From positions 27,964,001 through 28,028,000 of the forward strand of contig CM097885.1 of assembly GCA_044892525.1 (NCBI GenBank): a stretch of DNA of 64,000 nucleotides, written 5' to 3'. Positions 3,004 through 27,133 of this stretch are shown in pieces. Every line of letters begins with the position of its first letter. The first letter of the stretch is position 1. The position numbers and the translations under genes were made by a program. The DNA comes from Schmidtea polychroa. Lineage: Eukaryota. Under the pieces are notes generated by a model. The model worked only from the letters and a program-made list of their open reading frames with translations. It was not told the DNA's origin and made no database searches.

Positions 3004-3203
3004 ATTTTCTGACTGATTATGTAATAATTATTTCCTGATATTTTATTTACTGAATACTTTTCCTTATTTTTTGCATTATTATCTTTATTTTTAGAATTGA
3101 AAAAGTTTTTTATTGGAAATTGTGAGGAGAAAAAATTTCCCTATAAAATAGTTCTCAAATTAATCAAAGTGCCAAAAAAGATCGATGAAAAAATTTGAAT
3201 AAA

Positions 3204-3867: not shown

Positions 3868-4510
3868 CAGGCCTCGGAAGAGGGGTGGGGGGTCAGGAGG
3901 GTCTTTTGACATGGGCCTCTTAATTTAGCGTGCCCCCAAACAGCACTATTTTGATACTACACCAAACAATCAACGAGTTTATTTTGCACTTTTACGTATG
4001 GAATAAATAGTTTTCTTAACATAAAATCTAATTTAACTATAGAAGGCCTTATCTTTGGTGTAATTTTCACTTTCCTCAGATTTTCATTTTTTACTGCACT
4101 TGCACAAATAACTGCCGATATGATTTCAAAATCTTAGAGAAAAAATGATTACAGAATATTTGGCTTTGAGCTATTACATGAGTTCAAATTATTATATAAA
4201 AGTTTATTAGTAGCTAAAAGTTTAATTATAATTAAATTATAATGTTAAAAGTGTTGTTTGTGTTTTAATATTTTTAATAATTGAACTCTATAATTGGATT
4301 TTTTTTAAACTATATACATAAAATTGGGAAAACGGGTAATTTTTTTTGTTTAGCTTTGATTATTGATAATAAATAAAAATAAATAAACTATGGCGGTAAT
4401 TAAAACATGAAGAGGACCTATGGAAGTGGTGCTAGCAAAAGACAAAACAAAAATTTAGGGGCCACATACGATGTCAGACCTGGGCCTCCAAGTGTCTCTA
4501 ACAGGCTCTG
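3868..4510. mobile_element. Non-autonomous hAT-like MITE
   Basis: Perfect 8-bp TSD CTTGTGGC (3860-3867, 4511-4518); CAG...CTG termini with imperfect TIRs. A truncated mirror copy lies at ~27134-27514. Confidence 0.7.
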
Positions 4511-6446: not shown

Positions 6447-9400
6447 CAGTGGCGTACTAAGGATTTCTGGGGCCATTGTGCAGATTTTGGGACGCACAAA
6501 ATATTTGTCGAACGAAGTGATCCGAGGAACCAAACCATAGGCAGGCTTGGGGGAAGGTGATTAGCAACTCTCTGAGTAAATTTGCGCATTTTAAAACAGA
6601 AATAGTAGCGTTTCGGGTTGGGTTGAAAGGATATTTTGTTACTTCTCGGTATTCTCTGTATATAGAATGGGCACATGCCAGGTACCATCATGATATAATG
6701 AACAATAATTGTTGTTATTGTCACTAATTTATTGAAACATAATTCTTAGAAAAAACTCAGATCATACGCTTATTTCACCATAATATAAAATTGAATCACA
6801 TGATAAAAAGAAAGAACAAATCAAACATATGTCCTAATTTAGTTGGACACGATTCAAGTTTAAGATTTGTCAAAGGCTAAAAATCCCAAAAGTTAAAATG
6901 GCCGTTTGCGCGCCTTCTCTTGAGCAAAAATATCGACCACTTTTGAAATGTCAAGCTTTCTTGCATGTTCGTTTTCTATCGATAACATCGCTAGGTCGGT
7001 TAATCGCCCTTCAGACATGGTACTTCTTAGATAGTTTTTTATGAGCTTTAATTTGGAAAATGATCGTTCGCAGTTTGCAACAGTCACAGGCAAAGTCAAC
7101 AGCAACATGTAAGCGGTGCAGACATCACTGAATGCAGATGATAAAGCATAATAATCCACAAGTAGCAGTTGGGCAATTTCGAATATGGTTGGTTTGGTGG
7201 CTAAATTGGAATGAAAGCTTGCGCGAAATGACAACAGTTGAGCTGGAAACGAAGGCGAAATATCGGTATCGTATTCTTTAGCTAATAATTCGGCCGCTGT
7301 ATACAGTTCATCGTCGGAGGCAATCAATAATGTAGAGGGTAACAGAGCGCTAAACGTTGTAGCCAGTGAACTGAGGCTAAGAAATCGCAGTTTGATTTGT
7401 CTGCATGCTTTATCCACCGTAGCCAAAAATACGTTCAATCTGAAACGTTTCTCAATTGACGCAAGTGGATCGTCGTGACATTGTTCATCATAAAGTCGTT
7501 TTGTATTTTTTAAACGCCGGTCTTCGAAGTGATCTTTAATTTTCCAAGCTGTGGCCATGCCAGCAGCAGTGTCGCGAATAGAATCGTACTCATTTCGCAT
7601 GCGCGCTAATTTTTCATGTGATGTCTTGATCAGATCATTAGCCTTAGTCAGGTCGCACTGCGGAGATTGAAGTAATTGTGAGGTGGCATGGGTTGCTTCC
7701 AAAATCTTATTCATCATTGCAAGAATAAAAACAAACTCAAAACATTCCATCTTCTTTTTGATCATGAGTGCATTTGCTACTTCATCATTCTTCTTGCTGG
7801 TCAGAATGATCCTTGTGAGGACTTTCAAAATATCACCAAAGCGAAATCGCATGACAACGAGACAGTTATATCTTGATGACCATCTGGTAGGACACAATCT
7901 TTTCAGTGTAAGTTTCGAACCCGATTCGCATTCTAGTGACAACATAGACCACCGATGTATACTGTGACCAAAGAAAACGTAGATCTGTTCGAGAACACCA
8001 AAGAAATTCTTGACTTCAATAACGTCAGAAACAGCATCATTCAAAACAAGGTTTAAATTGTGAGCCGCGCAATGAACATAAGCAGCTTTCGGCTGCTTCG
8101 CGACTATGCGCGCCTGAACTCCCGAATAAATACCACTCATAGTAGCCGCGCCGTCATAACCTTGACCGCGCAGTTTGGTGAGTTCCAAACCATTATCTGT
8201 AATACATTTATTTACAAGAGTGTCACACAGACCGCTAGCAGATGTATCATCGACCACCAAAAAACCCATAAATGACTCACAAATTTTCAACTTCACCGGT
8301 TTGCCTGCTTGGTCTGTTTCAATACAGACGTAACGAATAACTTGACTAAGTTGGTCGATTTTACTGATATCTTGGATAGTATCCACCATAATTGAGAAAA
8401 ATGGCGCAGCTTTTACGTCTTTAAGTATGTCCTCCTTCATGCATCGAGCTACCATGGTAATCACTTCATTCTGTATGGTGGGACTGAGATACTTCACAGT
8501 ACCTTGGGGCATTCTCAAAAATGTTTCAAGGATGGGATCATACCTTGCAAGTAGGTTGATAACAGACAAGAAATTACCACAGTTTTCATTCCCGTTAGTT
8601 CCGACATCTTTTTCCCGGTGGCCTCTGAATGCCAAATTCGCCCCAGCCAACATAAGCGTGACGTTTACTATTCTGTCAATAACTTGTCTCCAGTAGCTTG
8701 CTTCCTTCCTTATGCCATCTTCAATTTCCACTGTCAATGTTCTGTTCATGCGCCACTGTTCAAGAACCATGCAACATTGTATGTGGTCGAAGGATTTTTC
8801 ATGAATATCCAGCACATATGTCAGATGACCCCAGTCCCGGAATCCTCTTACCCATGACGCATCACGATTTTTCGAAAACAGCCAACATGCGTGGCAATAT
8901 ACGCAGTCACCACTAGGCGAATAAGCTAGAGTAGTGCGTTTCAGTTTTACGCCTGCTTTATTGATTTTATTGTAAAACGATTCGGAGAAGCATCGTCCTT
9001 TCTGGCCGAGATCTCGTGGAAACGGACCAAGAGGTTGACATGGACCAAAGGAAATTATCAGCCGTTTCTGTTCATTTGACAAATGCTCTCCGAAATTTGC
9101 TTTGTCAGTGAGATGTTTTAAAGCAGTTCGTGCCTCCACAAAAGTGTCAATATTGCTCTGAGTAAAAGCTGAAGTAATTGAAGGGCCATATTTCTTATCG
9201 TCGGCGCTGTTTCCTAAATCTGGTGTCAATATTTGATCATCCGCCGTAGATTCCACAGTGTCATTCTGCTCAGTGGCGACATCTATAGCCACCGCCATCT
9301 CTGAGTTGATCAAAGCTGAATTCGATTCAGTCACCATATCTGAAGTAGTCTTCGATATCGGTTTAATATCCACGGGCTTTAGAAATTCGTAAATTTTCGG

Positions 9401-9981
9401 CATTTTAGCGGCCTTCTGTTCTCGTTCCTCACGTGCTCGTCGCTTAGCAGCCCCACTTAAATATGACTTAGACATATTTAAGGGTGTGCAGCTAATGCAA
9501 TTATATAATATTCAACTAATTATACAATTATTGTAAATTGATATACAATAAGCAATATTATTTTTATCCTTTTTACCGCATAGTAAATATCAACAAAACT
9601 CTATGACCTCTGCCATGATGTCGTTATACCGCCATTTTGAATCGAGTTGGCAAGTAAATTGGATTTGACGTTTTATTAATAAACAAGTCCTCATCACATA
9701 AAAAAAAACCAACGTCAAGTAAAGCAAATAATTTAATAGATGAATGGGTGTGACATATGTGGTTTACAACTATATCCAATATAGATTCCTAATAATATTA
9801 AATGTATAAACCGTCCAAACTGTGGTTGCTGTCTTAATAAAAACAAAACAAACGCCAAAGCGATGCTTGGTTTGATGACAATCGGGGAATTTATAATGCT
9901 CGAACGTATAAAATTTTACTAATTTTTCGTCCTGGGCCCTTGTGCCATGCACAACCTGCACAACCTATTGCTACGCCATTG
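6447..9981 (-). mobile_element. Autonomous-looking hAT transposon (Tip100/ZMYM1-like)
   Basis: TIR CAGTGGCGTA / TACGCCATTG (1 mismatch), perfect 8-bp TSD GCCAAAAC (6439-6446, 9982-9989), single intact transposase ORF. Confidence 0.95.
6893..9475 (-). CDS. hAT transposase, 860 aa (TTF-type zinc finger, DUF4371-like region, hATC dimerisation domain)
   Basis: YCHACWLF...GFRDW...HEKSFDH zinc finger; LAFRGH; catalytic D (FSIMVDTIQD), D (GQGYDGAATMSG), CAAH, PTRW, E (VTVANCERSFSKLKLIKNYLRSTM). Confidence 0.95.
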   Translation of the reverse strand: MSKSYLSGAAKRRAREEREQKAAKMPKIYEFLKPVDIKPISKTTSDMVTESNSALINSEMAVAIDVATEQNDTVESTADDQILTPDLGNSADDKKYGPSITSAFTQSNIDTFVEARTALKHLTDKANFGEHLSNEQKRLIISFGPCQPLGPFPRDLGQKGRCFSESFYNKINKAGVKLKRTTLAYSPSGDCVYCHACWLFSKNRDASWVRGFRDWGHLTYVLDIHEKSFDHIQCCMVLEQWRMNRTLTVEIEDGIRKEASYWRQVIDRIVNVTLMLAGANLAFRGHREKDVGTNGNENCGNFLSVINLLARYDPILETFLRMPQGTVKYLSPTIQNEVITMVARCMKEDILKDVKAAPFFSIMVDTIQDISKIDQLSQVIRYVCIETDQAGKPVKLKICESFMGFLVVDDTSASGLCDTLVNKCITDNGLELTKLRGQGYDGAATMSGIYSGVQARIVAKQPKAAYVHCAAHNLNLVLNDAVSDVIEVKNFFGVLEQIYVFFGHSIHRWSMLSLECESGSKLTLKRLCPTRWSSRYNCLVVMRFRFGDILKVLTRIILTSKKNDEVANALMIKKKMECFEFVFILAMMNKILEATHATSQLLQSPQCDLTKANDLIKTSHEKLARMRNEYDSIRDTAAGMATAWKIKDHFEDRRLKNTKRLYDEQCHDDPLASIEKRFRLNVFLATVDKACRQIKLRFLSLSSLATTFSALLPSTLLIASDDELYTAAELLAKEYDTDISPSFPAQLLSFRASFHSNLATKPTIFEIAQLLLVDYYALSSAFSDVCTAYMLLLTLPVTVANCERSFSKLKLIKNYLRSTMSEGRLTDLAMLSIENEHARKLDISKVVDIFAQEKARKRPF

Positions 9982-10164
9982 GCCAAAACTATCTTTATCA
10001 TTAATATTATTAATATGTCAATGTCAATCCCATGCGTTACATCAGTAGGTAGATAGTAGCGCACGGGAACAATTACCCCCCCGGGGGGGGGGGTTTGTTC
10101 CCAAATTTTTATTACGCAATTGTTCCCAACGCATTTTTTTGCTTTCAGGGATTTTTGGTCCAAA

Positions 10165-10690
10165 TTTTTTTCATCAGACTATAGTGAGGGGGTCTCGATG
10201 GTCCTGGGATTTTCAATACAAAATTTTTTTTTTCAATACAAAAAGGCGGTCTCACTAAAAAAGCATGGAATTTTCAGACTATAGTGAGGGGGTCTCGATG
10301 GTCCTGGGATTTTCAATACAAAAAATTTTTTTCAATACAAAAACGATGGTCCTGGGATTTTCAATACAAATAAAATTTTTTCAATACAAAAATCCGACTA
10401 CCACTAAAAAAGCATGGAATTTTCACACTATAATGAGGGGGTCTCGATGGTCCTGGGATTTTCAATACAAAAAATTTTTTTCAATACAAAAACGATGGTC
10501 CTGGGATTTTCAATACAAATAAAATTTTTTCAATACAAAAACGATGGTCCTGGAATTTTCAATACAAATAAAATTTTTTCTATACAAAAATCCTACTATC
10601 AATAAAAAAGCCAAGGATTTTTCAGACTATAGTGAGGTGAGTCTCCTTGGTCCTGAGAAAAAGGTGGTCTACACTAAAAAACGTGGTAAA
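10165..10690. repeat. Subterminal higher-order repeat (~43-bp GATGGTCCTGGGATTTTCAATACAAA units); mirror ~25060-25720
   Basis: Multiple GATGGTCCTGGGATTTTCAATACAAA and CTATAGTGAGGGGGTCTC units, with different unit order in the two arms. Confidence 0.9.
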
Positions 10691-10694
10691 TTAT

Positions 10695-11170
10695 TCAATT
10701 AAAGTAAATAATGGTCCTAAAAATTAAATTACAGTAAATTATGGCTCAAATTTTTCAATTAAAGTAAATTATGGGTCTAAAATATTAAATTAAAGTAAAT
10801 AATGGTTCTAAAAAATTAAATTAAAGTAAATTTAGGTTCTAAAAATTAAATTAAAGTAAATAATGGTTCTAAAAAATTAAATTAAAGTAAATTAAGGTTC
10901 TAAATTTTAAATTAAAGTAAATAATGGTTCTAAAAAATTAAATTAAAGTAAATAATGGTCTAAAATTTCAATTAAGTAAATTATGGTCTAAAATTTTCAA
11001 TTAAAGTAAATTAAGGTCCAAATTTGAATTAAAGTTAATTAAGGTTCAAAATTTAAAATTAAAGTAAATTAAGGTTCTAAAAAATTAAATTAAAGTAAAT
11101 TAAAGTAATAATTTTTAAATTAAGTAATCAATGGTAAAAAATTTTAAATAAGTAAATTAAAGTAAGATTT
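10695..11170. repeat. AT-rich ~26-27-bp tandem repeat (AAATTAAAGTAAATAATGGTTCTAAA); mirror ~24600-25060
   Basis: Directly visible tandem units. Confidence 0.85.
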
Positions 11171-11414
11171 TAAAAATTTAATTACAAAAAGTTGAAGGTG
11201 TTTGAGAATTGAAATTTTTTAATGAAAATTTTAATGAAATATTTTTTAAGTAATTTTTAATGGAAATTTTTATGAATTATTTTTCAATGATAATTTTAGA
11301 TGGAAATTTTTATGAAATATTTTTCAATGATAATTTTAGATGGAAATTTTTAAGATAACTTTTAATGAAAATTTTTATGAAATATTTTTCAAAGTCAAAT
11401 TTTAATAATAATTC

Positions 11415-13140
11415 AACAACAAATCAACAACTTAGTACCAACAACCAGTAACTTACGAACATGTATTACCAACCAGATACCTACAACCAGTTACCTGTTA
11501 CCAAGTACATACAACAAAACAACCAACCAACTAGGTACCAAGTACTTACAATTAACTACCAAGTACATACAACCACCTACCAATTACCTAGCTACAACCT
11601 ACAACTAGATACCAAGTACTCACAACCAACAACAACCAACCAACTAGGTACTAGATACCAAGTACTCACAACCGACAACAACCAAGTACTAAGCATTATT
11701 AACCAACATCAACCAGGTACTAAGCATTAATTACCAACTACTAAGTACCTACAACCATCTACCCATTAACTAGCTACAACCAGTTACCTGCTACTAAGTA
11801 CCTACAACCAACTAACAACTAGATACCAAGTACATACAACCAGACACTAAGCATTATCAACCAAGTACTAACAACTAAATACTAAACACTAACAACCGAC
11901 AATAACCAGGTACTAAGCATCATCAACCAACTACTAAGTACCTACAACTAGTTACTAACAACCAGTTACCTGATACTAAGTACCTAAAACCATCTACCAA
12001 GTACTAACAACCAGTTACCAACTACTAAGCATTAATTACCTACAACTAGTTACTAACAACTAGATACCAAGTACATACAACCAGACACTAAGCATTATCA
12101 ACCAAGTACTAACAACTAGATACTAACAACCAGTTACCCATTAACTAGCTACCAACTACTAAGTACCTACAACTAGTTACTAACAACCAGTTACCTGATA
12201 CTAAGTACCTACAACCATCTACCAAGTACTAACAACCAGTTACCAACTACTAAGCATTAATTACCTACAACCAACCAACTAGGTACTAGATACCAAGTAC
12301 TTACAACCAACATCAACCAGGTACTAAGCATTATCAACCAACTAAATACTAACAACCAACCAACTAGGTACTAGATACCAAGTACTTACAACCAACATCA
12401 ACCAGGTACTAAGCATTATCAACCAAATACTAAGTACCTACAACCACCTATCAAGTACTAACAATCAAAAGCAACAACTAGATGCTAACAACCAAAAACA
12501 TGCAACCAACTAGCTACAACCAGCACTCAACTAGCTACCAACTACTAACTACCTACAACCACCTACCCATTAACTAGCTACAACCAGCTAACTAGGTACT
12601 AGATACCAAGTACTAACAACCAGTTACCTGCTACTAAGTACCTACAACCACCTACTAAGTACCAACAACCGACAACAACCAAGTACTAAGCATTAATTAC
12701 CACCTACCAAGTACTAACAACTAACTACCACCTACCAAGTACTAACAACCAACAACAACCAGCTAACAACTAACTACCACCTACCAAGTACCTACAACCA
12801 ACTACCAAGTACCAAGTACTAACAACTAGGTACCAGATACCAAGTACTAACAACCACCAACAACCAGATACCTACAACTAGTTACTAACAACCAGTTACC
12901 TGCTACTAAGTACCTACAACCAACTAGCTACCACCTACCAAGTACCAACAACCACCTACCAAGTACTAAGCATTATCAACCAACTACTAAGTACCTACAA
13001 CCAACTAGCTACCACCTACCAAGTACATACAACCAACATCAACCAGGTACTAAGTATTATCAACCAAGTACCAACAACCAAGTAACTTACCTAGTACTAA
13101 GCACTGTCAACTAGATACCAAACACTTACAACCAGATGAC
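11415..13140. repeat. Complex C/A-rich satellite (CAAC/TAAC/AGTAC/TACC words); G/T-rich mirror ~22815-24430
   Basis: Strongly strand-biased mosaic of short words with 50-130-bp higher-order duplications that differ between arms. Confidence 0.9.
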
Positions 13141-13517
13141 CACATGAAATTATTGGTTAAATATGAAAATAAGGGTTATAATTAGTTGTTTAGTAAATTA
13201 TGGTGTAAAATTAAGTAATAAAGGATAAATAGGCAAATTAAGGATAAGTAAATTAAAGTTAAAAATTTTAAATAAGTAAATTAAGGTTCAAAATTTTAAA
13301 TTAAAGCTAAATGAATAAATTAAAGTAATAATTTTTAAATAAGTAATGTAATAAGTAAATTAAACTAAGATTTTTAAATTTATTAACAAAAAATAGAAGG
13401 TGTTTGAGAATTGAAATTTTTTAATGAAAATTTTTATGAAATAATTTTTAGGATAATTTTTAATGAAAATTTTTATGAAATATTTTTTAAGTTAATTTTT
13501 AATGGAAATTTTAATGG

Positions 13518-13525
13518 AATAATAA

Positions 13526-13580
<55 letters not shown>

Positions 13581-13581
13581 T
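13518..13581. repeat. (AAT)n microsatellite; mirror (ATT)n ~22505-22551
   Basis: Directly visible. Confidence 0.9.
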
Positions 13582-13990
13582 CAACAGTTACCAACAATCG
13601 GTTACTAAATATTTTTAACTAGGTGCTAACAAATACTTACAACATGATACCACGTACTAACTAACTCTCAAACAACCAGATACTTACAACTAACTACTAA
13701 ATATTCTTCACTGTATTTTATGAAATGCTTTTTAAATTAATTTTTTATCTATCTACAAAAATATATTTAATTACAATCATTAGAAAAACCTTTTCAAATT
13801 TAACAAAAATGTTGATTTTCATCAAAAAACCACAACTCATCACCACGTGAAATTCAAAATAATTTAAATTACAATGAAAGACTAATGAATTCTAATTTAC
13901 AAAACATTCTTCTTTTAAATGATAACTACTGACTTATTATTGCAATGTAAAAATTGCATTCAATAAATACTTATTGTTGATCAGTTTTAT

Positions 13991-14104
13991 TATATATACT
14001 CTGAGTTTATCCGACAGGATGTTTTGACCCCCTAATGGTACAGGTCGTAAGGGTACTGGTCGCAAGGGTACTAGTCGTAAAGGTACTAGTCGTAGGGGTA
14101 TTGG
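13991..14104 (-). promoter_or_regulatory. Conserved module: 15-bp tandem sites + GTCGGATAAACTCAGAG + TATA box (other copies ~16921-17030, 19155-19262, 21985-22099, 31400-31500, 39067-39162)
   Basis: GGTACAGGTCGTAAG GGTACTGGTCGCAAG GGTACTAGTCGTAAA GGTACTAGTCGTAGG, then (minus strand) GTCGGATAAACTCAGAGTATATATAA. Regulatory function is inferred only. Confidence 0.45.
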
Positions 14105-15804
14105 TAACACTCAACCACAACCTACCCATTAACTAGCTACTAAGTACTAACAACCAGTTACCTGATACCAACTACTAACAACCACCATCAAAACCCATCG
14201 AGAAATTAACAAATATCAACCTACAACTATATAACAACAATCAATAAACAACACTGCACCAACTACCATATACAAGATACCAACAACTTAGTACCAACAA
14301 TCAACTAACCACACATAAAAATAATAGCAATTAAATACAAAATACTCTTCATCGCATACACTATTTTCTTATCAAAATCTAAAAAGTCAACCAACTACTT
14401 ACAACCAACAACTATGTACTAACAAATTGATCTTTAAAAGCAAATACTCATCACTTGAAAAATTAGATGGAAAATTAATTGAACTCAAGGCATCAATAAC
14501 TTGATAAAAATTGATTAAATTATTGTAAAAAATTTAAATTATTCGAAATAAATATCATAAAAATTTAATTAATGGACAAGAAAAAATTCTAATCATCCAA
14601 TAAATAAAAAAAAATGCTGATCATTCAAGTTGAATCAACTAAGATAATAAATTAATAAGATAAGATCTAGTAGATAATTGATTTAGATTGAATAAATTAT
14701 TTGAAATAAAATTAATTTTAAGTATTTTTTTAAAAGTAATACATGTACTCAAATCTATTTACTAATTCCTCAATATATTCAAAAAATCAGTATGAATTCA
14801 TTAAAATTATCAAAGTCAGCAATCTACAATAAAAATAATTATCATTAAATTCCAAAAGAGACTAGATAACTAATGATAACATCTAACAAACCAGTAAATT
14901 CATTTAAATAATTGGTATATTCAAGCGAATTCTCTAATAAAATCATCTAAAAAGAATCATTTTCCCTGAAATATATCAATATTTAAAGATTGGTATCTTA
15001 TCGATAAGTACTTGTTAAAGATCATATATTCACCTCGAACTAACAAGATTCCTTAAAATCCCTCAAATGACTATATTTCTACCCTTAATTCGTATTATTA
15101 CAAATATTTCACTAAAATCATCTAAAAAGCATCAAATTTCCCTGAAATAACTATATCTTTAAAGATTAGTATTTTATCGATAAATATCCTTAAAAGGTTA
15201 TATATTTACCTCAGACTAATAAGATTGCTTTAATTCCTATTATCACGAATATTTCCTTATAAAACATGTAAAATCATTAACCCTAAAGAATTTATAAAAT
15301 CTAATGACAAAACCGGTTATAATAAAATTTTTGTTAATCACTGTAAATTTTTGTAAATCACTGTACTCGAAATTTAAAATAAATATAACTGACTAGGTCC
15401 CATTGAAAGATTAAATTTATCCATTCAATAAAATATATTTCTTCAAATGATCATTTTACCGATATTCAACCGATTTAATTACTAATTAAAATCAAGATTT
15501 CTTCCAATAAAGATCAATTTTATTTAGTTGTCGATGTTTTAAATCAATATTTCTCAACTTTTGTCGTTGTCCGTCTAAATAAAGATAAAAATAATTTAAA
15601 GCTGATATCAATCCCAATTATCTGTAAAGTTTTCATCGTCAAAACCAAGTAAATCGATCATTATCCCTACTTAATAAAACATTGTTCTAAAATAATTTAC
15701 TATGCATTAATCACAACCTAATAAAACGATATAATTATTATTGATTCATAACTGACTAATGTATTGCAATTTCCTTAAAAAACATTGATATTTTACCAAC
15801 ATCA

Positions 15805-16120
15805 CCCTTAAAAAATCATATATTCCCATCGAAACCCTTCCCTCATTAAAAGCAACCGACTATATCTCCCTCACAATAATATATTCCCATCTTAACCCAT
15901 CTCACATTAAATCTAACCGACTATATCCCCTTAAAAGATCATATTTTCCCCATCTTAACCGACCTCTCATTAAATCTAACCAACAATATCCCATCTTAAC
16001 CGATCTCTCATTAAATCTAACCGACTATATCCCTTTAAAAATCGTATATTCCCATCTTAACCCATCCCTCATTAAATTTAATAACCGACAATATCCCATC
16101 TTATCCGATCTCTCAGCAAA
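15805..16120. repeat. ~40-60-bp degenerate tandem repeat (TATTCCCATCTTAACC...CTCATTAAATCTAACCGAC); mirror ~20160-20425
   Basis: Directly visible repeated units. Confidence 0.75.
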
Positions 16121-16654
16121 TATTTCTACCCTTTTAAACATCTAACCGAATATATCCTTCAATTCTACCCACTTGAATCCTCCTTTAATTCAATTCAGTC
16201 TTAAAATCTTTAAAGAACTTCAAAAATATGACTTAATTGTTATAGACACCAAATATTCTTCCATTGAAATAATTTAGTAGCTATGTAGTAAGAGTTCACT
16301 AAAAGATCAAAAATCAATATTTTCTACAAATATTTACCATCAAATACTGGAGATGATATATATTGATTGATCATAATTCTTCATCGATTCAACCAATCAT
16401 TTTCAAGTAAGTTAACTGGTTTCTTAGCTTATGTTTTTTAAAGTTCATCAATGAGTAAATATTCTTAGAAAAATATTGAAAACATTATTTAGTCAAATAC
16501 ATTACAAAGTTATCATCAAAAATCACTTAATTATTAACCTAATTGTCAATGAAATTAATTTTTATTTAAAAACTATTCAATAAAATACAACTAATTATCA
16601 AGAAATTAATTAAATTTATCATAGAACTAACTTTAAATATTCATTCAATAAACA

Positions 16655-16835
16655 TGAAATTCACAAAAAACGATAAAAATTCACAAGAATGATAGAAATT
16701 CACAAAAAACGATAAAAATTCACAAGAATGATAGAAATTCACAAGAATGATAAAAATCCACAAGAATAATAGAAATTCACAAGAATGATAGAAATTCATA
16801 AAAATGATAGAAATTCACAAAAAAGATAGAAATTT
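16655..16835. repeat. ~19-20-bp tandem repeat (GAAATTCACAAGAATGATA); mirror ~19350-19567
   Basis: Directly visible; copy number differs between arms. Confidence 0.85.
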
Positions 16836-17694
16836 ACTTGAATAAAACCATCAACTCTAAAAATTATCAATGAATGCCTTATACAAATTTGCCTAAATAA
16901 TCATTCAAATAAAAACATTAAATACCTTTACGACTAATACCCTTGCGACATGTTGAATGTGAGTAGTACCCTTGTGAGCAATACCCATAGGGGGACAGAA
17001 TATTTTGTCGGATAAACTCAGAGTATATATTAATTAACTCATTTTTCATTGAATTAGTCAAATTATCATAAATTGCGATAAAAAATCTAAAGTGGTAAGC
17101 AATGTAAAGAGAAATATTCTTTAAACTTTGATAAAATTAACAATGAAGGTGGTAAGAATCTTCATTAAAGTGAGGAAATTACTCGATGATAAATTCAAAT
17201 GGGTGAAAATAATTGGTAGAATAATTCATTAATGGATCATTGAATGGGCATGGATAACATGAAGGTTGATAAGAATGGAAGTATATTAATTTATTTAAAA
17301 TTATTTCATAAAATTCATAAATTTAATAAAAAAAAAACTTTTAAGACAAATATTTGTGGGGAATAATTAATCAAAATCGGGGGGATATTAGTGATTAATT
17401 AATGGAAAATAGAGAATCGGGGAATATAAGTGAATAATTAATGGAAATTCTAGGGAATACAAATGATTAAATAGTGGAAATCGGGGGAATATAAGTTATA
17501 ATAATTAGTGGGGTATTGAGAATCGGTGGAATATAAGTGAGAAGGATATGTAATTTAAACTAGTTTATTACATAACAAGCCGTGACTAGTTTATTACATA
17601 ACAAGCTGTGAATGGTTTTTGAATAAGAAATATGGAATAGGTCTTATTTTTTTAAAATTTTTGACTAAAATAAATTCTAAAATAATAACTAATT

Positions 17695-18545
17695 AATACT
17701 AAAATGTTTTAATTTACATTATGTATTTCAAAAACAATTATCATAAAAGAAAATAATATATATATATTACCCTTTTCATTCAAAATAAGTTGAATATTCA
17801 AATATATATCTTAGAAAATACAAATTTTATAAGTAAAGCTTTTTTAAATAAATTTAAATAAGAAATTAATTTATTACCAGTTATATACTTTAAAACTTTT
17901 TTATGGAATAAGACAAAAATTTTGTTGTATAAGTCCTTTAATATTGTAATAATTATTTATTAATAAATTTATTATTCTACACTAAATATTTCAAAAACAA
18001 TTATCATATTATTAATTATATTACTCCTTTCAATAAAAATAAGATAAATATTCAAATAAATGACTTATAAAATACAATTAAAATTAAATTCTTTACACTA
18101 AATTTAAAAATATAAATTTTATAAGAAAATGTGAATAAGAAATTGATTTATTAACAGTTATAGACTTCTTGAACTTAATGATGGAATTAGGTAATAGAAA
18201 GTAATTTTTCTTTTTAAAAAGTCCTTTAATATTGTATTCTATTCATTATTAAATTTACTATTTTACACTAAAATATTTTAATTTAGAAAAAAAAATCATC
18301 ATAATATTGAATATAATACTTCAATCAAAATAAGTTAATACTCAAATATATGTCTTAAAAAATACAATCAAAATTAAATATTTCACTAAATTTTAAGTAA
18401 AGTTTTTTAAATTCTCAAATAAATGTTAACACGATATTAATTTATTAATCATTATATACTTTTTAAACTTATTATTGGAATAAAACAATAGAATGATATT
18501 GAAAATATATACAATTTAAAAATACAATAAAAATTAAATTCAATA
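17695..18545. repeat. Central spacer of the palindrome: about three diverged ~285-bp direct repeats
   Basis: Recurrent blocks AAAATAAGnTnAATAnTCAAATA..AAAATACAA and AAGTCCTTTAATATTGTA at ~285-bp spacing. Confidence 0.7.
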
Positions 18546-21500
18546 CTAGGTAAAATGTTGGTAAAATCCCGTTCACAGCTTGTTATGCAATAAACTAGTC
18601 ATGGCTTGTTATGTAATAAACTAGTTTAAATTACATATCCTTCTCACTTATATTCCACCGATTCTCAATACCCCACTAATTATTATAACTTATATTCCCC
18701 CGATTTCCACTATTTAATCATTTGTATTCCCTAGAATTTCCATTAATTATTCACTTATATTCCCCGATTCTCTATTTTCCATTAATTAATCACTAATATC
18801 CCCCCGATTTTGATTAATTATTCCCCACAAATATTTGTCTTAAAAGTTTTTTTTTTATTAAATTTATGAATTTTATGAAATAATTTTAAATAAATTAATA
18901 TACTTCCATTCTTATCAACCTTCATGTTATCCATGCCCATTCAATGATCCATTAATGAATTATTCTACCAATTATTTTCACCCATTTGAATTTATCATCG
19001 AGTAATTTCCTCACTTTAATGAAGATTCTTACCACCTTCATTGTTAATTTTATCAAAGTTTAAAGAATATTTCTCTTTACATTGCTTACCACTTTAGATT
19101 TTTTATCGAAATTTATGATAATTTGACTAATTCAATGAAAAATGAGTTAATTAATATATACTCTGAGTTTATCCGACAAAATATTCTGTCCCCCTATGGG
19201 TATTGCTCACAAGGGTACTACTCACATTCAACATGTCGCAAGGGTATTAGTCGTAAAGGTATTTAATGTTTTTATTTGAATGATTATTTAGGCAAATTTG
19301 TATAAGGCATTCATTGATAATTTTTAGAGTTGATGGTTTTATTCAAGTAAATTTCTATCTTTTTGTGAATTTCTATCATTTTTATGAATTTCTATCATTA
19401 TTGTGAATTTCTATTATTCTTGTGGATTTTTATCATTCTTGTGAATTTCTATCATTCTTGTGAATTTTTATCGTTTTTTGTGAATTTTTATCAATTTTGT
19501 GAATTTCTATTATTTTTGTGAATTTCTATTATTTTTGTGAATTTTTATCGTTTTTTGTGAATTTCATGTTTATTGAATGAATATTTAAAGTTAGTTCTAT
19601 GATAAATTTAATTAATTTCTTGATAATTAGTTGTATTTTATTGAATAGTTTTTAAATAAAAATTAATTTCATTGACAATTAGGTTAATAATTAAGTGATT
19701 TTTGATGATAACTTTGTAATATATTTGAATAAATAATTTTTCAATAATTTTCTAAGAATATTTACACATTGATGATCTTTAAAAAAACGTAAGCTAAGAA
19801 ACCAACTTTATCAATGACTTTAAATTTACTTGATAATTATTGTAGGATATACAGAAATTTAGTTTGCTGTTATTGCTTGAAAATGATTGGTTGAATAGCT
19901 GAAGAATTATGATCAATCAATATATATCATCTCCAGTATTTGATGGTAAATATTTGTAGAAAATTTAGTGAATTTTGATCTTTTAATGGGCTCTTATTAT
20001 TTGTCTGGTTCTATAACAATTAATTAAAAGTCATATTTTTGAAGTTCTCTGAGGATTTTAAGAGGATTGATATATATTAAAGGGCTCAAGTTGGTGAAAT
20101 GTTTAGGGAAAATAAGGGATATAATCGGATAGATGTTTAAAAGGGTAGAAATATTTGCTGAGAGATCGGATAAGATGAGATATTGTCGGTTAAATTTAAT
20201 GAGGGATGGGTTAAGATGGGAATATATCATTGTAAGGGGGATATAGTCGATTGATTTTAATGAGAGATCAGATAAGGTGGGAATATATCATTGTAAGGGA
20301 GATATAGTCGATTGAATTTAATGAGGGATGGGTTAAGATGGGAATATATGATTGTAAGGGGGATATAGTCGATTGCTTTTAATGAGGGAAGGGTTTCGAT
20401 GGGAATATATGATTTTTTTAAGGGTGATGTTGGTAAAATATCAATGTTTTTTAAGGAAATTGCAATACATTAGTCAGTTATGAATCAATAATAATTATAT
20501 CGTTTTATTAGGTTGTGATTAATCCATTGTATATTAATTTAGATTTATGGATTATTAAGTAGGGATAATGATCGATTTACTTGGTTTTGACAATGAAAAC
20601 TTTACAGATAATTGGGATTGATATCAACTTTAAATTATTTTTATCTTTATTTTGACGGAGAATGACAAAAGTTTAGAAATATGGACTTAAAACATCGACT
20701 AAATAAAATTGATCTTTATTGAAAGAAATATATCGATTGATTTTAATTAGTAATTAAATCGATTGAATATCGGTAAAATGATCATTTGAAGAAATATATT
20801 TTATTGAATGGATAAATTTAATCTTTTAATGGGACCTAGTCAGTTATATTTATTTTAAATTTCGAGTACAGTGATTAACAAAAATTTAATTATAACCGGT
20901 TTTATCATTAGATTTTATCAATTATTTAGGGTTAATGACCAAATTATTTTACATGTTTTATAATATTCGTGATAATAGGAATTAAAGTCATTTAAAGGGG
21001 ATTTTAAGCAATCTTATTAGTCTGAGGTAAATATATAACCTTTTAAGGATATTTATCGATAAAATACTAATCTTTAAAGATAGTTATTTCAGGGAAATTT
21101 GATGCTTTTTAGATGATTTTAGTGAAATATTTGTAATAATACGAATTAAGGGTTGAAATATAGTCATTTAAGGGATTTTAAGGAATCTTATTAGTTTGAG
21201 GAGAATATATGATCTTTAACAAGTATTTATCATTAAAATACCAATCTTTAAATATTGATATATTTAGGGGGAAAATGATGCTTTTTAGATGATTTTATTG
21301 GAGAATTCACTTGGATATACCAATTATTGTTATTTGAATGAATTTACTGGTTTGTTAGATGTTATCATTAGTTATCTAGTCTCTTTTGGAATTTAATGAT
21401 AATTATTTTTATTGTAGATTGCTGACTTTGATAATGATCAGCATTTTTTTTTATTTATTGGATGATTAGAATTTTTTCTTGTCCATTAATTAAATTTTTA

Positions 21501-22503
21501 TGATATTTATTTTGAATAATTTAAATTTTTACAATTATTTAATCAATTTTTACCAAGTTATTGATGCCTTGAGTTCAAATAATTTTTCATCCAATTTTTC
21601 AAGTGAAGAGTATTTGCTTTTAAAGATCAATTTGTTAGTACATAGTTGTTGGTTCTAGGTAGTTGGTTGTTAGTACTTGGTACTTGGTAGTTGGTATCTG
21701 ATTGACTTTTTAGATTTTGATAAGAAAATAGTGTATGCGATGAAGAATATTTTGTATTTAATTGCTATTATTTTTATGTGTTGTTAGATGATTGTTGGTA
21801 CTAAGTTGTTGGTATCTTGTATTTGGTAGTTGGTACAGTGTTGTTTACTGATTGTTATATAGTTGTAGGTTGATATTTGTTAATTTCTCGATGGGTTTTG
21901 ATGGTGGTTGTTAGTAGTTGTTGTTTGAAACCTAGTGGTTAGTACTTAGTAGCTAGTTAATGGGTAGGTTGTGGTTAAGTGTTACCAATACCCCTACGAC
22001 TAGTACCTTTACGACCAGTACCCTTACGACTAATACCCTTACGACCTGTACCCTTAGGGGGTCAAAACATCCTGTCGGATAAACTCAGAGTATATATAAT
22101 AAAACTGATCAACAATAAGTATTTATTGAATGCGATTTTTACTTTGCAATAATAAGTCAGTAGTTATCATTTAAAAGAAGAATGTTTTGTAAATTAGAAT
22201 TCATTAGTCTTTCATTGTAATTATTTTGAATTTCACGTGGTGATGAGTTGTGGTTTTTTGATGAAAATCATCATTTTTGTTAAATTTGAAAAGGTTTTTC
22301 TAATGATTGTAATTAAATATATTTTTGAAGATAGATAAAAAATTAATTTAAAAAGCATTTCATAAAATACAGTGAAGAATATTTAGTAGCTAGTTGTAAG
22401 TATCTGGTTGTTTGAGAGTTGGTTAGTACGTGGTATCATGTTGTAAGTATTTGTTAGCACCTAGTTAAAAAATAATCAGTAACCGATTGTTGGTAACTGT
22501 TGA

Positions 22504-22552
<49 letters not shown>

Positions 22553-25500
22553 CATTTAAATTTCCATTTAAATTTACATTATAAATTACATTTCTCAAAA
22601 AAGTTGGTGGTTATTCAATCTTTTGATAATAAATTTAAAAATTATTACTTTAATTTACTTATTTAATTTAAAATTTGAACCTTAATTTACTTTTTTTAAA
22701 AATTATTACTTTAATTTACCTAATTATTCTTTATTTCTTAATTTTACACCATAATTTACTTAACAACTAATTATAACCCTTATTTTCATATTTAACCAAT
22801 AATTTCATGTGGTCATCTGCTTGTAAGTGTTTGGTATCTAGTTGACAGTGCTTATTACTAGGTAAGTTACTTGGTTGTTAGTACTTGGTATCTAGTACCT
22901 GGTTGATGTTGGTTGTATGTACTTGGTATCTAGTTGTTAGTAACTAGTTGTAGGTAATTAATGCTTAGTAGTTGGTAACTGGTTGTTAGTACTTGGTAGT
23001 TGGTAGCTAGTTGGTTGTATGTACTTGGTATCTAGTTGTTAGTAACTAGTTGTAGGTACTTAGTAGTTGGTTGATGATGCTTAGTACCTGGTTATTGTCG
23101 GTTGTTAGTGTTTAGTATTTAGTTGTTAGTACTTGGTTGATAATGCTTAGTGTCTGGTTGTATGTACTTGGTATCTAGTTGTTAGTAACTAGTTGTAGGT
23201 ACTTAGTAGTTGGTTGATGATGCTTAGTACCTGGTTATTGTCGGTTGTTAGTGTTTAGTATTTAGTTGTTAGTACTTGGTTGATAATGCTTAGTGTCTGG
23301 TTGTATGTACTTAGTATCATGTTGTTAGTAACTAGTTGTAGGTAATTAATGCTTAGTAGTTGGTAACTGGTTGTTAGTACTTGGTAGGTGGTAGCTAGTT
23401 GGTTGTAGGTACTTAGTAGTTGGTAGCTAGTTGAGTGCTGGTTGTAGCTAGTTAATGGGTAACTGGTTGTTAGTATCTAGTTGTAGGTACTTAGTAGTTG
23501 GTTGATGATGCTTAGTACCTGGTTATTGTCGGTTGTTAGTGTTTAGTATTTAGTTGTTAGTACTTGGTTGATAATGCTTAGTGTCTGGTTGTATGTACTT
23601 GGTATCTAGTTGTTAGTAACTAGTTGTAGGTAATTAATGCTTAGTAGTTGGTAACTGGTTGTTAGTAACTAGTTGTAGGTTGATAAGGCTTAGTACCTGG
23701 TTGTTGACGGTTGTTAGTACTTGGTATCAGGTAACTGGTTGTTAGTATCTAGTTGTAGGTTGTAGGTACTTAGTAGTTGGTAATTAATGCTTAGTACCTG
23801 GTTGTTAGTATTTAGTTGTTAGTATTTAGTTGTTTGAGACCTAGTTGTTAGTATCTAGTTGTAGGTATCTGGTAACTAGTTGGTTGTTGGTACTTAGTAG
23901 GTGGTATCTGATACCTGTTTGGTTGCTTGTTTTTGGTTGTTAGTACTTGTTAGGTGGTTGTAGGTACTTAGTATCAGGTAACTAGTTGTTAGTAACTAGT
24001 TGTAGGCACTTGGTATCTGGTAATTTGTTGTAGGTACTTCGTTGTTTTTTGTTGTTAGTACATGGTTGTTGGTTGTAGGTACTTGGTATCAGGTAACTGG
24101 TTGTTAGTAACTAATTGTAAGTACTTGGTAGCAGGTATCTGGTTGTTAGTAACTAGTTGTAAGTACTTGGTAGTTGGTAGTAAGTACTTGGTTGATGTTT
24201 GTTGTAAGTACTTGGTATCTAGTACCTAGTTGGTTGTTTTTGGTTGTTAGTACTTAGTAGTTGGTTGTAGGTACTTGGTAGGTGGTAGTTAGTTGTTAGT
24301 ACTTGGTACCTAGTTGGTTGCATGTTTTTGGTTGTTGGTACTTGGTATCAGGTAACTGGTTGTAGGTATCTGGTTGGTAATACATGTTCGTAAGTTACTG
24401 GTTGTTGGTACTAAGTTGTTGATTTGTTGTTGAATTATTATTAAAATTTGTCTTTGAAAAATATTTCTTAAAAATTTCCATTAAAAATTATCATTGAAAA
24501 ATATTTCATAAAAATTTCCATTAAAAATTACCATTGAAAATTTTCATTAAAAAATTTCAATTCTCAAACACCTTCAACTTTTTGTAATTAAATTTTAAAA
24601 TCTTACTTTAATTTACTTATTACATTACTTTAATTTACTTATTTAAAAATTATTACTTTAATTTACTTATTTAAAAATTATTACTTATTTAAACTTTTTT
24701 ACCATTGATTACTTAATTTTAAAATTTGTACCATTATTTACTTTAATTTAATATTTTAGAACCTAAATTTACTTTAATTTAAAAATTTGGACCATAATTT
24801 ACTGTAATTTTAATTTTTAGAACCATAATTTACTGTAATTTAATTTTTAGGACCATTATTTTCTTTAATTTAAAAATTTGGACCATTATTTACTTTAATT
24901 GAAAAATTTGGACTATAATTTACTTTAATTTAATTTTTTAGAACCATTATTTACTGTAATTTAATTTTTAGAACCTTAATTTACTTTAATTTAATTTTTT
25001 TAGAACCATTATTTACTTTAATTGAAAAATTTGAGCCATAATTTACTTTAATTGAATAATTTACCACGTTTTTTAGTGTAGACCACCTTTTTCTCAGGAC
25101 CAAGGAGACTCACCTCACTATAGTCTGAAAAATCCTTGGCTTTTTTAGTGTAGACCACCTATTTGTATTGAAAATATCCTGAGACCTTAAATTACCATGC
25201 TTTTTAGTGTAGACCAGCTTTTTGTATTGAAAATATCCCGAGACCTTAAATTACCACGTTTTTTAGTGTAGAACACCTATTTCTCAGGACCAAGGAGACT
25301 CACCTCACTATAGCGTGATAAATCCTTGGCTTTTTTATTGATAGTAGGATTTTTGTATAGAAAAAAATTTTTTGTATTGAAAATCCCAGGACCATCGAGA
25401 CCCCCTCACTATAGTCTGAAAATTCCATGCTTTTTTAGTGAGACCGCCTTTTTGTATTGAAAAATTTTTATTTGTATTGAAAATCCCAGGACCATCGTTT

Positions 25501-25832
25501 TTGTATTGAAAAAATTTTATTTGTATTGAAAATCCCAGGATCATCGAGACCCCCTCACTATAGTCTGAAAATTCCATGCTTTTTTAGTGGTAGTCGGATT
25601 TTTGTATAGAAAAATTTTTTTTGTATTGAAAATCCCAGGACCATCGTTTTTGTATAGAAAAAATTTTTTTGTATTGAAAATCCCAGGACCATCGAGACCC
25701 CCTCACTATAGTGTGAAAAATTGCGTAATCAAAAGTTGCAGCAAAAAAATTACGGCAACAAAAAAATTACGGCAGCAGAACCCCCCCCCCCCCCCCGAGG
25801 TCATTGCTGCCGTAGGCTACTATCTACCTACT

Positions 25833-26021
25833 TACATCGTATATTACAGTATCCTTAGTGAATTGTTCTTGCAAACCTTTAAATCTATTTTCTGACATAA
25901 GTCTAAGTAATTCTAATTTTTCTGTGTTCCAAGATATACTAACCTCATACATATTATATTGGAACATCAAATTTATGCGGGAAAAGGTATCGAAATTGAG
26001 GTCAATATCAGGAAGTGCCAT
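25833..26021 (-). pseudogene. 5' part of an unknown ORF interrupted by the Maverick-like element and the hAT (continues at 9990-10037 and 6426-6446)
   Basis: Removing both insertions (keeping one TSD copy each) gives an uninterrupted frame MALPDIDLNF...KDTVIYDVTHGIDIDILIILMIKIVLANMR*. Confidence 0.5.
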
Positions 26022-27133
26022 TAGATTGCGGACTATAAAAAGGAACTAAACTGGAATGAAGGGAGTTGAAAAGTAAAGAAAGAAGTTGAGAGAAAATAAG
26101 ATAAGACAGAATTTGTAAAGAGAAGAAAACTGAAATTGTAATGAAAGGAAGAAAATAAAGCTAAAACGAAACCCAACGACAATTACGAAATTACCGGAGA
26201 AGCGATTTAAGAAGTTAAAGTTATTGGATAAATTCGAGTCAAAGACAAAAAAGCAACTAGATCAAATTTACCGATCATTGAAACCGAAAACAGTAGTTGA
26301 ACGGTTGTGAGTTCTTAGTTGTATTGAAACGTGCTATTCCTAGTGAAGGGTTGTAATAAGCAATCAATTTGTCATTATAGCAGATTTTTATTTGAGTCGC
26401 TGTAAATTGGAAATCAATTGTGTTAATCAATAAAGTTTATATTGTCTGGAACTTTTTATTGTTATTAAAGAAGGTACGCTTTGAAGTCAGATCAATAATT
26501 GACAATATTTAATTTCACCGAAAACCCCAACAATATTGAATTTATATAAGTGGCAGAACTTCAAGCTTGAGTCAAATAACTAGTCTCATTATGGGTTTGT
26601 AGAGCATTCATTTGAAGAATGAAGGACAATTGCACTAATCCAATCATTGTGATCAGACGGCGGAAAACTGATCCATGAACAAACTTCATTGATTTTAATC
26701 TCATCAAAAGACTCATAACCGTAAATTTAATTAAATATTTCTATCAAATTCTTTGCAGGAATTTTATAAATAATACCACCCCCTGTTGATTTTGACGTAA
26801 TGGTTTGATTCAATTTTGCCTTCAATACGACCTAGTTCAAAATTCAAGGTTGATTTATGGTAAATTATTCAACAGCTTGACAATCTTCGTCAATAAATTC
26901 CTCGGATGCCATCTGAAAAAAAAATTTAATTAATAGTCTTTCAGAGTTTCCATGGTTGATTTTCAAAATACCATTGATCATGTTATCATGATAATGACCC
27001 TCGAAAATCCACATTGTTTTTTCTTACTTGATTAGATAACGGGCTCTTCGTACAATTTACTAATTGCATTTGTTAGAAAGCGTATGAAAATCCAAATTTG
27101 TTGCATACTTTTTCTTTACACTTTTAACTTTAA

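What the first reader, a model, noticed from the sequence alone, without database searches (positions are those of the whole stretch)
10044..25832. 15.8-kb gene-free, nearly fully palindromic Polinton/Maverick-like element
Seen: a perfect 6-bp TSD (TACATC), AG...CT termini starting with short AGT/AGG repeats, ~7.5-kb inverted arms around a ~1-kb spacer, and no credible ORF. Known: a 6-bp TSD plus AG-starting TIRs with terminal micro-repeats is the Polinton/Maverick signature (retroviral-like integrase, protein-primed polB slide-back initiation); Maverick TIRs are normally only hundreds of bp and elements are ~15-20 kb. Inference: this is a snap-back or defective-interfering-like Maverick that integrated as a unit with helper proteins. 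It may keep full genome length with satellite stuffer because of capsid packaging or replication constraints.
Basis: partly seen in the sequence, partly recalled or inferred. Interest (0 to 1): 0.9.

Follow-up and report, generated by a model that had tools for sequence, protein, structure and literature searches.

The report
Gene-free palindromic Polinton parasite family
This 15.8-kb mirror-image stretch of DNA has no genes and is one copy of a large family of jumping elements that share their ends with a gene-carrying, virus-like Polinton transposon in the same genome, and it very likely borrows that transposon's enzymes to copy and insert itself.

Summary
The element is real. It has a perfect 6-bp target duplication, AGTAGG termini, a 943-bp loop and no gene remnant. 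The arms fill 94% of it but are only 77% identical overall, so "near-perfect palindrome" is overstated for this copy.

It belongs to a family of roughly 800-1,200 gene-free copies (extrapolated). 20 of 25 end-paired elements carry perfect 6-bp duplications. Its outer 1.4 kb match the TIRs of a young gene-bearing Polinton (polB, integrase, ATPase, capsid-like genes) at up to 97-99%. Another study's runs probably show the empty site.

Within a copy the arms usually evolve together (38 of 38 listed mirror pairs share one variant). This copy is an exception, a recombinant of several subfamilies. Three polB-bearing elements with mirror-image polB and target duplications show that the family throws off fold-back genomes. 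12 of 15 gene-free copies are 14.8-17.5 kb, like the gene-bearing ones.

Verdict: a helper-dependent fold-back Polinton derivative (0.9). Copy-back replication (0.6) and a packaging limit (0.35) are inferred. Named non-autonomous Polintons exist; I found no paper on this architecture. The scan noted similar elements before, in this genome and two windows elsewhere.

The parts
10038..10043 (.). left 6-bp target-site duplication (TACATC)
10044..25832 (.). whole gene-free element, 15,789 bp
10044..10060 (+). terminal motif shared with gene-bearing Polintons of this genome; inferred replication origin and integrase end
10044..11410 (+). left TIR proper (C/G run, 49/149-bp and 30/61-bp sub-repeats), homologous to the TIR of the gene-bearing Polinton at G000:C1:10478630-10495204
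11411..13140 (+). 7/14/21/28-bp-period satellite block; absent from the two gene-bearing copies compared
13189..13521 (+). internal second copy (80%) of TIR segment 10972-11319
13992..17030 (.). 3.0-kb inner segment bounded by imperfect ~100-bp inverted modules (13992-14085 and 16923-17030, 74% alike) and mirrored in the right arm; the 18-mer marker lies at 13998, 17007, 19160 and 22074
16820..17620 (+). innermost left arm, 99% complementary to 18564-19364
17621..18563 (.). 943-bp AT-rich loop with a decayed internal direct duplication (67-71%)
18564..19343 (-). innermost right arm, same haplotype as the left arm
19344..25832 (-). outer right arm from other subfamilies; the switch falls in the 19-bp satellite; 20844-22600 is 97-100% like the copy at G000:C3:52371457-52387056
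24430..25832 (-). right TIR proper; tiles 25044-25643 are 97-99% identical to the TIR of the gene-bearing Polinton at G000:C1:10478630-10495204
25833..25838 (.). right 6-bp target-site duplication (TACATC)

Best explanation
The element is one recent insertion of an abundant, gene-free, fold-back-shaped, non-autonomous family that parasitises a resident Polinton/Maverick.

SHOWN: (1) it carries the partner's ~1.4-kb TIR at both ends; (2) family members sit in diverse 6-bp target duplications; (3) the partner family has the core genes and is very young; (4) the two arms of a copy usually share private variants; (5) this copy is a mosaic of subfamilies.

INFERRED from established Polinton and adenovirus biology: the helper's protein-primed polB copies the excised linear element from the terminal repeat by strand displacement, and the helper's retrovirus-like integrase inserts it, making the 6-bp duplication. 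The displaced strand can fold into a ~7.5-kb stem with a 1-kb loop and so regains a double-stranded origin at once. Template switching onto the nascent or displaced strand (copy-back) creates new palindromes and resets the two arms to one sequence. Switching between co-replicating molecules gives mosaics like this one.

WEAKLY INFERRED: satellite filler holds the length near the helper's ~16-17 kb because of packaging or replication.

Odds: helper-mobilised Polinton derivative 0.9; replicative copy-back as the main source of arm identity 0.6; capsid-packaging size limit 0.35.
For: TIR identity with a gene-bearing copy is 84-89% over 1.4-1.5 kb and 97-99% in tiles 25044-25643. That copy has an A32-type ATPase, an rve integrase region, an adenovirus pX-like protein, a DJR-capsid-like ORF and a 1,374-aa polB. 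All 40 scored copies of its polB are 99-100% identical.

20 of 25 end-paired elements have a perfect 6-bp duplication and 2 more have one mismatch; there are 23 different hexamers. All 40 scored loci for the centre show an adjacent mirror of at least part of the inner arm (counted from the table).

Arm concordance: the first 22 nt are identical at both ends in 20 of 25 elements although 18 end types occur (permutation mean 2.2; 0 of 100,000 reach 20). 38 of 38 listed inner mirror pairs share one variant (permutation mean 17.6, maximum 28). Arm-to-arm substitutions are 0.2% in copy B and 2.1% in copy A, while A and B match each other at only 84-86%.

All 3 tested inverted polB pairs lie in elements with matching termini and 6-bp duplications (15,994, 15,493 and 12,591 bp); 2 of the 3 have a directly palindromic centre. 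One of them carries a 69-80% match to the gene-free interior. A 10.9-kb gene-free copy turns back at a different point, with arms 100% identical over 1,113 bp.

In runs X5 and X6 a single-copy-depth contig matches from 25832 rightward and has about 272 more letters that are not the element end. In runs X1 and X2 the contig starts inside the terminus.
Against: No extrachromosomal, protein-capped or packaged form was observed; every mechanistic step is inferred from sequence. This copy's own arms differ by 10.6%, and 5 of 25 elements have discordant ends, so arm resetting is not obligatory. 24 of the 100 listed inner-marker hits had no listed partner, and 88 hits were not shown, so discordant pairs may be hidden. 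The interior matches no Polinton gene, so its origin is unexplained. 3 of 15 gene-free copies are 10.4-11.4 kb and one polB-bearing copy is 13.4 kb, which weakens a strict size limit; many same-length copies are close kin and not independent. In the gene-bearing copy scanned, integrase homology is split over two frames. The empty-site contig's extra letters were not displayed, and the occupied-site contigs reach only 26-28 letters into the element, under the tool's 31-letter bridging standard.
Confidence: 0.8

Rival explanations
1. It is a non-autonomous Polinton derivative, but arm identity comes from gene conversion between the arms after insertion in the chromosome, as in other long chromosomal palindromes, and not from copy-back replication. 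The length simply reflects the founder element.
For: Arm-to-arm conversion would also give within-copy concordance and would keep the target duplication. The arms are long and close together. The window copy seems young and is not homogenised except next to the loop.
Against: Conversion does not create new palindromes. New turn-points occur in polB-bearing elements and in the 10.9-kb copy. Very young copies already have near-identical arms that differ from other subfamilies by about 15%.
Confidence: 0.25
2. It is a classical foldback transposon (FB, Galileo or Mutator type) moved by an ordinary cut-and-paste transposase, which picked up Polinton ends by recombination or resembles them by chance.
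For: Long modular arms built of tandem sub-repeats around a small loop are the classical foldback layout (recalled, not tested). An open hAT transposase frame lies about 530 bp to the left.
Against: The duplication is 6 bp in 20 of 25 elements; foldback families of the P, Mutator and hAT types make 7-11 bp (recalled). The outer 1.4 kb is the Polinton TIR itself, at up to 97-99%. The hAT gene lies outside the target duplication.
Confidence: 0.05
3. It is a dead Polinton whose interior was replaced in place by satellite expansion and inversion, or an assembly artefact from fold-back long reads.
For: The interior is satellite-rich. Palindromes are a known long-read artefact (recalled).
Against: The same interior recurs at many loci at 97-100% with different flanks. 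The arms differ and match different distant copies. Short-read contigs support the junction and a probable empty allele.
Confidence: 0.02

Closest known systems
Polinton/Maverick elements (Barreat and Katzourakis 2021, PMC8097293; passages and section 7 read)
   Same: 6-bp duplication, AG-starting repeated end motif, length inside the reported 12.7-24.6 kb (mean 16.9 kb), a TIR proper of about 1.4 kb at the top of the reported 46-1,447 bp, and ends shared with a gene-bearing partner.
   Different: No genes at all. The inverted arms cover 94% of the length. The end motif is AGTAGG rather than (AGT)2 or (AG)3. Copy number is far above the median of 8 and maximum of 287 reported for vertebrates. 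Defective copies in that paper are eroded fossils, not a mobile gene-free family.
Catalogued non-autonomous Polintons (names Polinton-1N1_DR and Polinton-N1A_NV, seen in passages of PMC9341505 and PMC11296320)
   Same: The N in the names points to a non-autonomous Polinton category that is already recognised (reading of the naming convention recalled).
   Different: Their structure could not be read: the Repbase entries are not available and Kapitonov and Jurka 2006 is not held. Polinton-N1A_NV is described as having a capsid gene. Whether any is a full-length gene-free palindrome is unknown.
Snap-back and copy-back defective genomes (AAV snapback genomes, PMC8235507, abstract read; RNA-virus copy-back genomes, search listing only)
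   Same: One terminus is used at both ends, the stem is long and self-complementary around a loop, and helper dependence is inferred. The polB-bearing mirror elements resemble half-genome snapbacks.
   Different: It integrates and is inherited in many copies, it keeps the parent's length instead of shrinking, and its interior is not parental coding DNA. Interference is untested.
Foldback transposons (Drosophila FB, Galileo, plant FARE) and MITEs (recalled, no call)
   Same: Long modular inverted arms made of tandem sub-repeats, no coding capacity, trans-mobilisation.
   Different: 6-bp duplication and Polinton ends; 10-17 kb rather than hundreds of bases to a few kb; the partner is a self-replicating virus-like element.

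Membership tests
Polinton/Maverick (autonomous) | Encodes protein-primed polB and a retrovirus-like integrase (definition in PMC5499653 abstract) | tested here: not met
   No ORF of 100 aa or more from ATG and no tblastn remnant
Polinton/Maverick (autonomous) | 6-bp target-site duplication | tested here: met
   TACATC here; perfect in 20 of 25 end-paired elements
Polinton/Maverick (autonomous) | End motif (AGT)2 or (AG)3 | tested here: inconclusive
   AGTAGG matches 5 of 6 letters of (AGT)2; the gene-bearing partner has the same end
Polinton/Maverick (autonomous) | Length about 13-25 kb with TIRs up to about 1.4 kb | tested here: inconclusive
   15.8 kb fits and the TIR proper is about 1.4 kb, but the inverted arms run 7.3-7.6 kb
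Non-autonomous Polinton derivative | Shares terminal cis sequences with a gene-bearing Polinton in the same genome | tested here: met
   84-89% over 1.4-1.5 kb, 97-99% in the right-end tiles
Non-autonomous Polinton derivative | Partner carries polB, integrase, ATPase and capsid genes and is recent | tested here: met
   The capsid call rests on Atlas look-alike clusters with PF21738 on 22-30% of members; Pfam gave no direct hit.
Non-autonomous Polinton derivative | Dispersed independent insertions and empty sites | tested here: met
   23 different target hexamers in 25 elements; probable empty allele in 2 of 4 runs
Non-autonomous Polinton derivative | Mobilisation shown to need the partner's proteins | not testable with these tools
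   Inferred only
Copy-back / snap-back defective genome | Same parental terminus at both ends with long complementary arms | tested here: met
   this copy's arms come from different subfamilies
Copy-back / snap-back defective genome | Body derived from the parental genome | tested here: inconclusive
   Only the TIR and one internal TIR duplicate match two gene-bearing copies; part of the interior matches a polB-bearing mirror element at 69-80%
Copy-back / snap-back defective genome | Replicates and is packaged with helper, and interferes with it | not testable with these tools
   No data
Classical foldback transposon (FB/Galileo/MULE type) | Long modular arms of tandem sub-repeats | tested here: met
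Classical foldback transposon (FB/Galileo/MULE type) | 7-11-bp duplication and a P- or Mutator-type transposase partner (recalled) | tested here: not met
   The duplication is 6 bp and the same-ended partner found is a Polinton; P and Mutator transposases were not searched genome-wide

The most novel reading that the evidence does not exclude
Animal Polintons have their own heritable defective-interfering satellites: gene-free, fold-back genomes of full unit length that are made and reset by copy-back during protein-primed replication, padded with satellite DNA to fit the helper's capsid, packaged, and re-integrated. Here they rival the gene-bearing copies in number. Their length would then be a genomic record that these elements form virions, and their mirror structure could feed double-stranded RNA or piRNA against the shared TIRs of the helper.
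Probability: 0.3. Interest if true: 0.85.

Novelty: new variant of a known kind. Interest (0 to 1): 0.65.

Why it matters
Polinton replication and virion formation in animals are still largely inferred. A young family that keeps only the ends, folds back on itself and stays at about genome length is a natural experiment. It maps the cis sequence needed for copying and insertion to at most the outer 1.4 kb. It records template switching and recombination among co-replicating molecules. It also gives a test of whether capsid size limits these genomes, a constraint that Barreat and Katzourakis suggested for intact elements. By extrapolation the family is about 12-19 Mb (1.5-2.5%) of this genome, made of long inverted repeats, and gene-based Polinton screens would miss it.

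Tried and rejected
Hidden genes: six-frame ORFs, a shuffle null and tblastn with 129 Polinton-locus ORFs found nothing. Structured RNA or tRNA: no Rfam hit to E = 1 and no tRNA.

Idea that the element is nested in a larger mobile palindrome (3.8-kb inverted repeat 451-4252 / 27134-30939): rejected. That repeat has only local copies of its Dcp2-like gene region.

Idea that the 10.9-kb class arises by recombination between two same-direction copies of the ~100-bp module: not supported. The one copy examined turns back at window-equivalent 14754 and 16921 instead.

Idea that the gene-less relative with a 7SL head noted earlier by the scan is this family: the 2.1 kb fetched there shares only a 93-bp module and AAT repeats with this element, and no matching terminus was listed nearby. 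Its palindromic shape was not tested.

Expression: no RNA holder listed; this is no evidence either way.

The left end of the neighbouring hAT element was not found with a 13-nt probe.

Literature: ten searches combining Polinton/Maverick with non-autonomous, palindromic, foldback, snap-back, copy-back, defective, planarian terms and Repbase-style names found no description of full-length gene-free palindromic Polintons. Kapitonov and Jurka 2006 and Krupovic and Koonin 2015 are not held, Repbase is not searchable, and no supplements were read, so prior description there cannot be excluded.

Full report
OBSERVATION. The hexamer TACATC flanks 10044-25832 on both sides, and both ends read AGTAGGTAGATAGTAGC inward. 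The inverted arms are 10044-17620 and 18564-25832 around a 943-bp loop, so they make up 94% of 15,789 bp. They are not near-perfect: 76.6% identity in a global alignment with 10.6% substitutions at aligned sites, and only the innermost 800 bp is 99%. The arms are full of tandem arrays with periods from 7 to 176 bp. No ATG ORF reaches 100 aa. The longest stop-to-stop frame (118 aa) is at the shuffle median (112). tblastn with 129 ORFs from 24 Polinton loci finds only translated TIR frames. Rfam and ARAGORN find nothing.

A FAMILY, NOT A ONE-OFF. In the 781-Mb genome the exact 16-mer terminus occurs 708 + 703 times with 0 control hits, and a relaxed form 2,234 + 2,239 times. Of 25 end-paired elements whose flanks I read (the window copy included; chosen from the listed places, not at random), 20 have a perfect 6-bp duplication, 2 have one mismatch and 3 have none; 23 different hexamers occur. 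The centre of the element has 2,549 first-look candidates; all 40 scored loci show an adjacent mirror of at least part of the inner arm (counted from the table). An internal 18-mer, present four times here, occurs 6,410 times. In the first 9.24 Mb of C1, 13 of 24 terminus pairs contain it, and in 9 of the 10 without large insertions the outer markers sit 3.1-4.4 kb from each end. Scaling gives roughly 800-1,200 copies, about 12-19 Mb. This is an extrapolation from one region. Lack of genes was checked directly only in the window copy, in copies A and B (ORF scan) and, by DNA similarity alone, in part of one 10.9-kb copy.

THE PARTNER. PF03175 polB and PF21738 capsid matches are abundant in this genome. 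Two polB hits fall inside same-ended pairs (C1:10478630-10495204 and C1:20965893-20985096). The first carries a TBP-like ORF, an A32-type ATPase, a pX-like ORF, an rve integrase region split over two frames, two ORFs with no Pfam hit, a DJR-capsid-like ORF and a 1,374-aa polB with an endonuclease VII-like stretch. The capsid call comes from Atlas look-alikes, not from a direct Pfam hit. Its ~1.4-kb TIRs match the outer 1.4 kb of the window element at 76-77% on the left and 84-89% on the right, reaching 97-99% in tiles 25044-25643. Apart from one internal TIR duplicate, nothing further in matches. All 40 scored copies of a 1.3-kb polB segment are 99-100% identical, among 2,144 candidates, so the partner family is young. 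Other Polinton families with about 66% polB identity also exist here.

THIS COPY IS A MOSAIC. The left arm differs by 0.57% from copy A (C1, right end at 76011143). The innermost right arm equals the left arm. From the 19-bp satellite at about 19344 outward the right arm switches: 20844-22600 is 97-100% like copy B (C3:52371457-52387056), and the right TIR is like the gene-bearing copy. The two termini differ from nt 18, yet the target duplication is perfect. The simplest reading is that the mosaic formed before insertion; a long conversion tract after insertion is not excluded.

ARMS EVOLVE TOGETHER. Arm-to-arm substitutions are 0.2% in copy B and 2.1% in the inner 6 kb of copy A, while A and B match each other at 84-86%. 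The first 22 nt are the same at both ends in 20 of 25 elements although 18 end types occur (permutation mean 2.2; 0 of 100,000 reach 20). For an inner 26-mer, 38 of 38 listed mirror pairs share the same variant (permutation mean 17.6, maximum 28). 24 of the 100 listed hits had no listed partner and 88 hits were not shown.

NEW PALINDROMES KEEP FORMING. Five inverted polB pairs, all in the same outward-pointing layout, stood out. I tested three. All have matching termini of a related type, 6-bp duplications and lengths of 15,994, 15,493 and 12,591 bp. Two have a palindromic centre (99.4% and 100%); the third has a repeat-filled loop. One carries a 69-80% match to the gene-free interior next to its polB, which links the two kinds of element. 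A 10.9-kb gene-free copy turns back at a different point, with arms 100% identical over the 1,113 bp fetched.

RECENT MOBILITY. Laid on 25725-27100, runs X1 and X2 (one study) give a single-copy-depth contig that starts 26-28 letters inside the terminus and runs into the flank with no differences. Runs X5 and X6 (another study) give a contig that matches from 25832 rightward and has about 272 further letters that are not the element end. The last base of the element equals the base before the left duplication, so an empty allele would begin to match exactly there. The extra letters were not shown, and X1/X2 may be the source of the assembly, so this is probable, not proven.

LENGTH. Of 15 marker-bearing copies without large insertions, 12 are 14.8-17.5 kb and 3 are 10.4-11.4 kb; three more of 27-34 kb were left out as probably holding nested insertions. 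Same-ended polB-bearing copies are 16.6, 17.1 and 13.4 kb, and 15.7 kb once a 3.5-kb insertion with hAT homology is removed. Intact vertebrate Mavericks average 16.9 +/- 1.7 kb, which the authors read as a constrained genome size (PMC8097293, passages). The match is suggestive, since the arms are built of unstable arrays, but the copies are related and short ones exist.

MECHANISM. Shown: shared cis ends, dispersed 6-bp-duplication insertions, a young gene-bearing partner, concerted arms, mosaics and repeated new turn-points. Inferred from the accepted Polinton model (jumping-back protein priming at repeated end motifs, as summarised in PMC8097293; strand displacement and panhandle formation recalled from adenovirus biology): helper polB replicates the linear element, the displaced strand folds into a long stem, copy-back switches create and reset palindromes, and helper integrase inserts the product. 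The main rival for arm identity is chromosomal conversion (0.25). A classical foldback of another superfamily (0.05) and an artefact or in-place decay (0.02) are unlikely.

COMPARISON AND NOVELTY. By definition Polintons encode polB and integrase (PMC5499653, abstract), so this is not an autonomous Polinton. It works like a non-autonomous derivative and looks like both a foldback transposon and a snap-back defective genome (AAV example, PMC8235507, abstract). Names of non-autonomous Polintons appear in print (PMC9341505 and PMC11296320, passages), but I could not read their structures. The anole survey reports no non-autonomous copies (PMC3014272, passages). The giant-transposon review passages I saw mention none of this shape (PMC6431247). 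A preprint on flatworm genomes reports Maverick expansion without such detail (10.64898/2025.12.11.693146, passages). Polintons are piRNA targets in a planarian (PMC8532177, passages). Ten searches found no account of full-length gene-free palindromic Polintons, but the founding paper and Repbase were not readable. The host looks like a flatworm, which is a lead from an Atlas cluster and an earlier scan note. The scan noted similar architectures before: one in this genome and two in windows of other genomes. These are unchecked notes, not independent support.

VERDICT. The feature is real and is a new variant of a known kind. Interest 0.65.

Noticed in passing
window 451-4252 and 27134-30939: A 3.8-kb, 98.7% inverted duplication with an intronless 273-aa Dcp2/Nudix ORF in each arm encloses the element and a hAT gene. 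Two more partial copies lie within 60 kb and none elsewhere, so it is a local gene cluster.
   Followed up: partly
window 6893-9511 (-): An open 872-aa hAT (DUF4371 + dimerisation domain) transposase frame; a TIR-like end lies near 9982, about 60 bp from the element; the other end was not found.
   Followed up: partly
L051:1985-2461 (-): The gene-bearing partner has a 158-aa TBP-like ORF head-to-head with the packaging ATPase (PF00352, E 3e-16). The scan noted this earlier.
   Followed up: no
window 16937-17029; L069:1367-1459: A 93-bp module is shared (94%) with a different repeat at C1:~134.9 kb and with a decayed copy at window 39056-39144. It may be a nested transposon end or a shared cis signal.
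   Followed up: partly
window 31218-31579 and 37561-39144: Decayed (67-69%) fragments of the gene-free interior, which suggest that the lineage is much older than its current burst.
   Followed up: no
window 25771-25862, runs X1, X2, X5, X6: Summed contig depth at the terminus relative to unique flank is about 750-1,600 in one study and 40-60 in the other, while a flank repeat gives 280-420 in all four. The tool warns this is no copy number; it is only a hint of a strain-specific burst.
   Followed up: no
G000:C1:2663675-13055467 (several pairs): A recurring 13.0-13.5-kb class with a variant terminus; one holds polB and has 1.6-kb TIRs and a 6-bp duplication.
   Followed up: partly
G000:C1:126063863-126064166 (L060): The centre of a polB-bearing mirror element contains inward copies of the TIR and terminus, like two shortened elements joined head to head.
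   Followed up: no
G000:C1:165719675 (+) and 165733002 (-): An inverted pair of capsid genes 13 kb apart in another Polinton family; possibly a left-half mirror element.
   Followed up: no
window 40746-42290 and 55868-57412; 50890-51706; 58272-59753 (-): A 1,545-bp 99.9% direct repeat pair 15 kb apart (LTR-like) enclosing a 74-bp x 11 array, and a second hAT-type frame of 493 aa further right.
   Followed up: no
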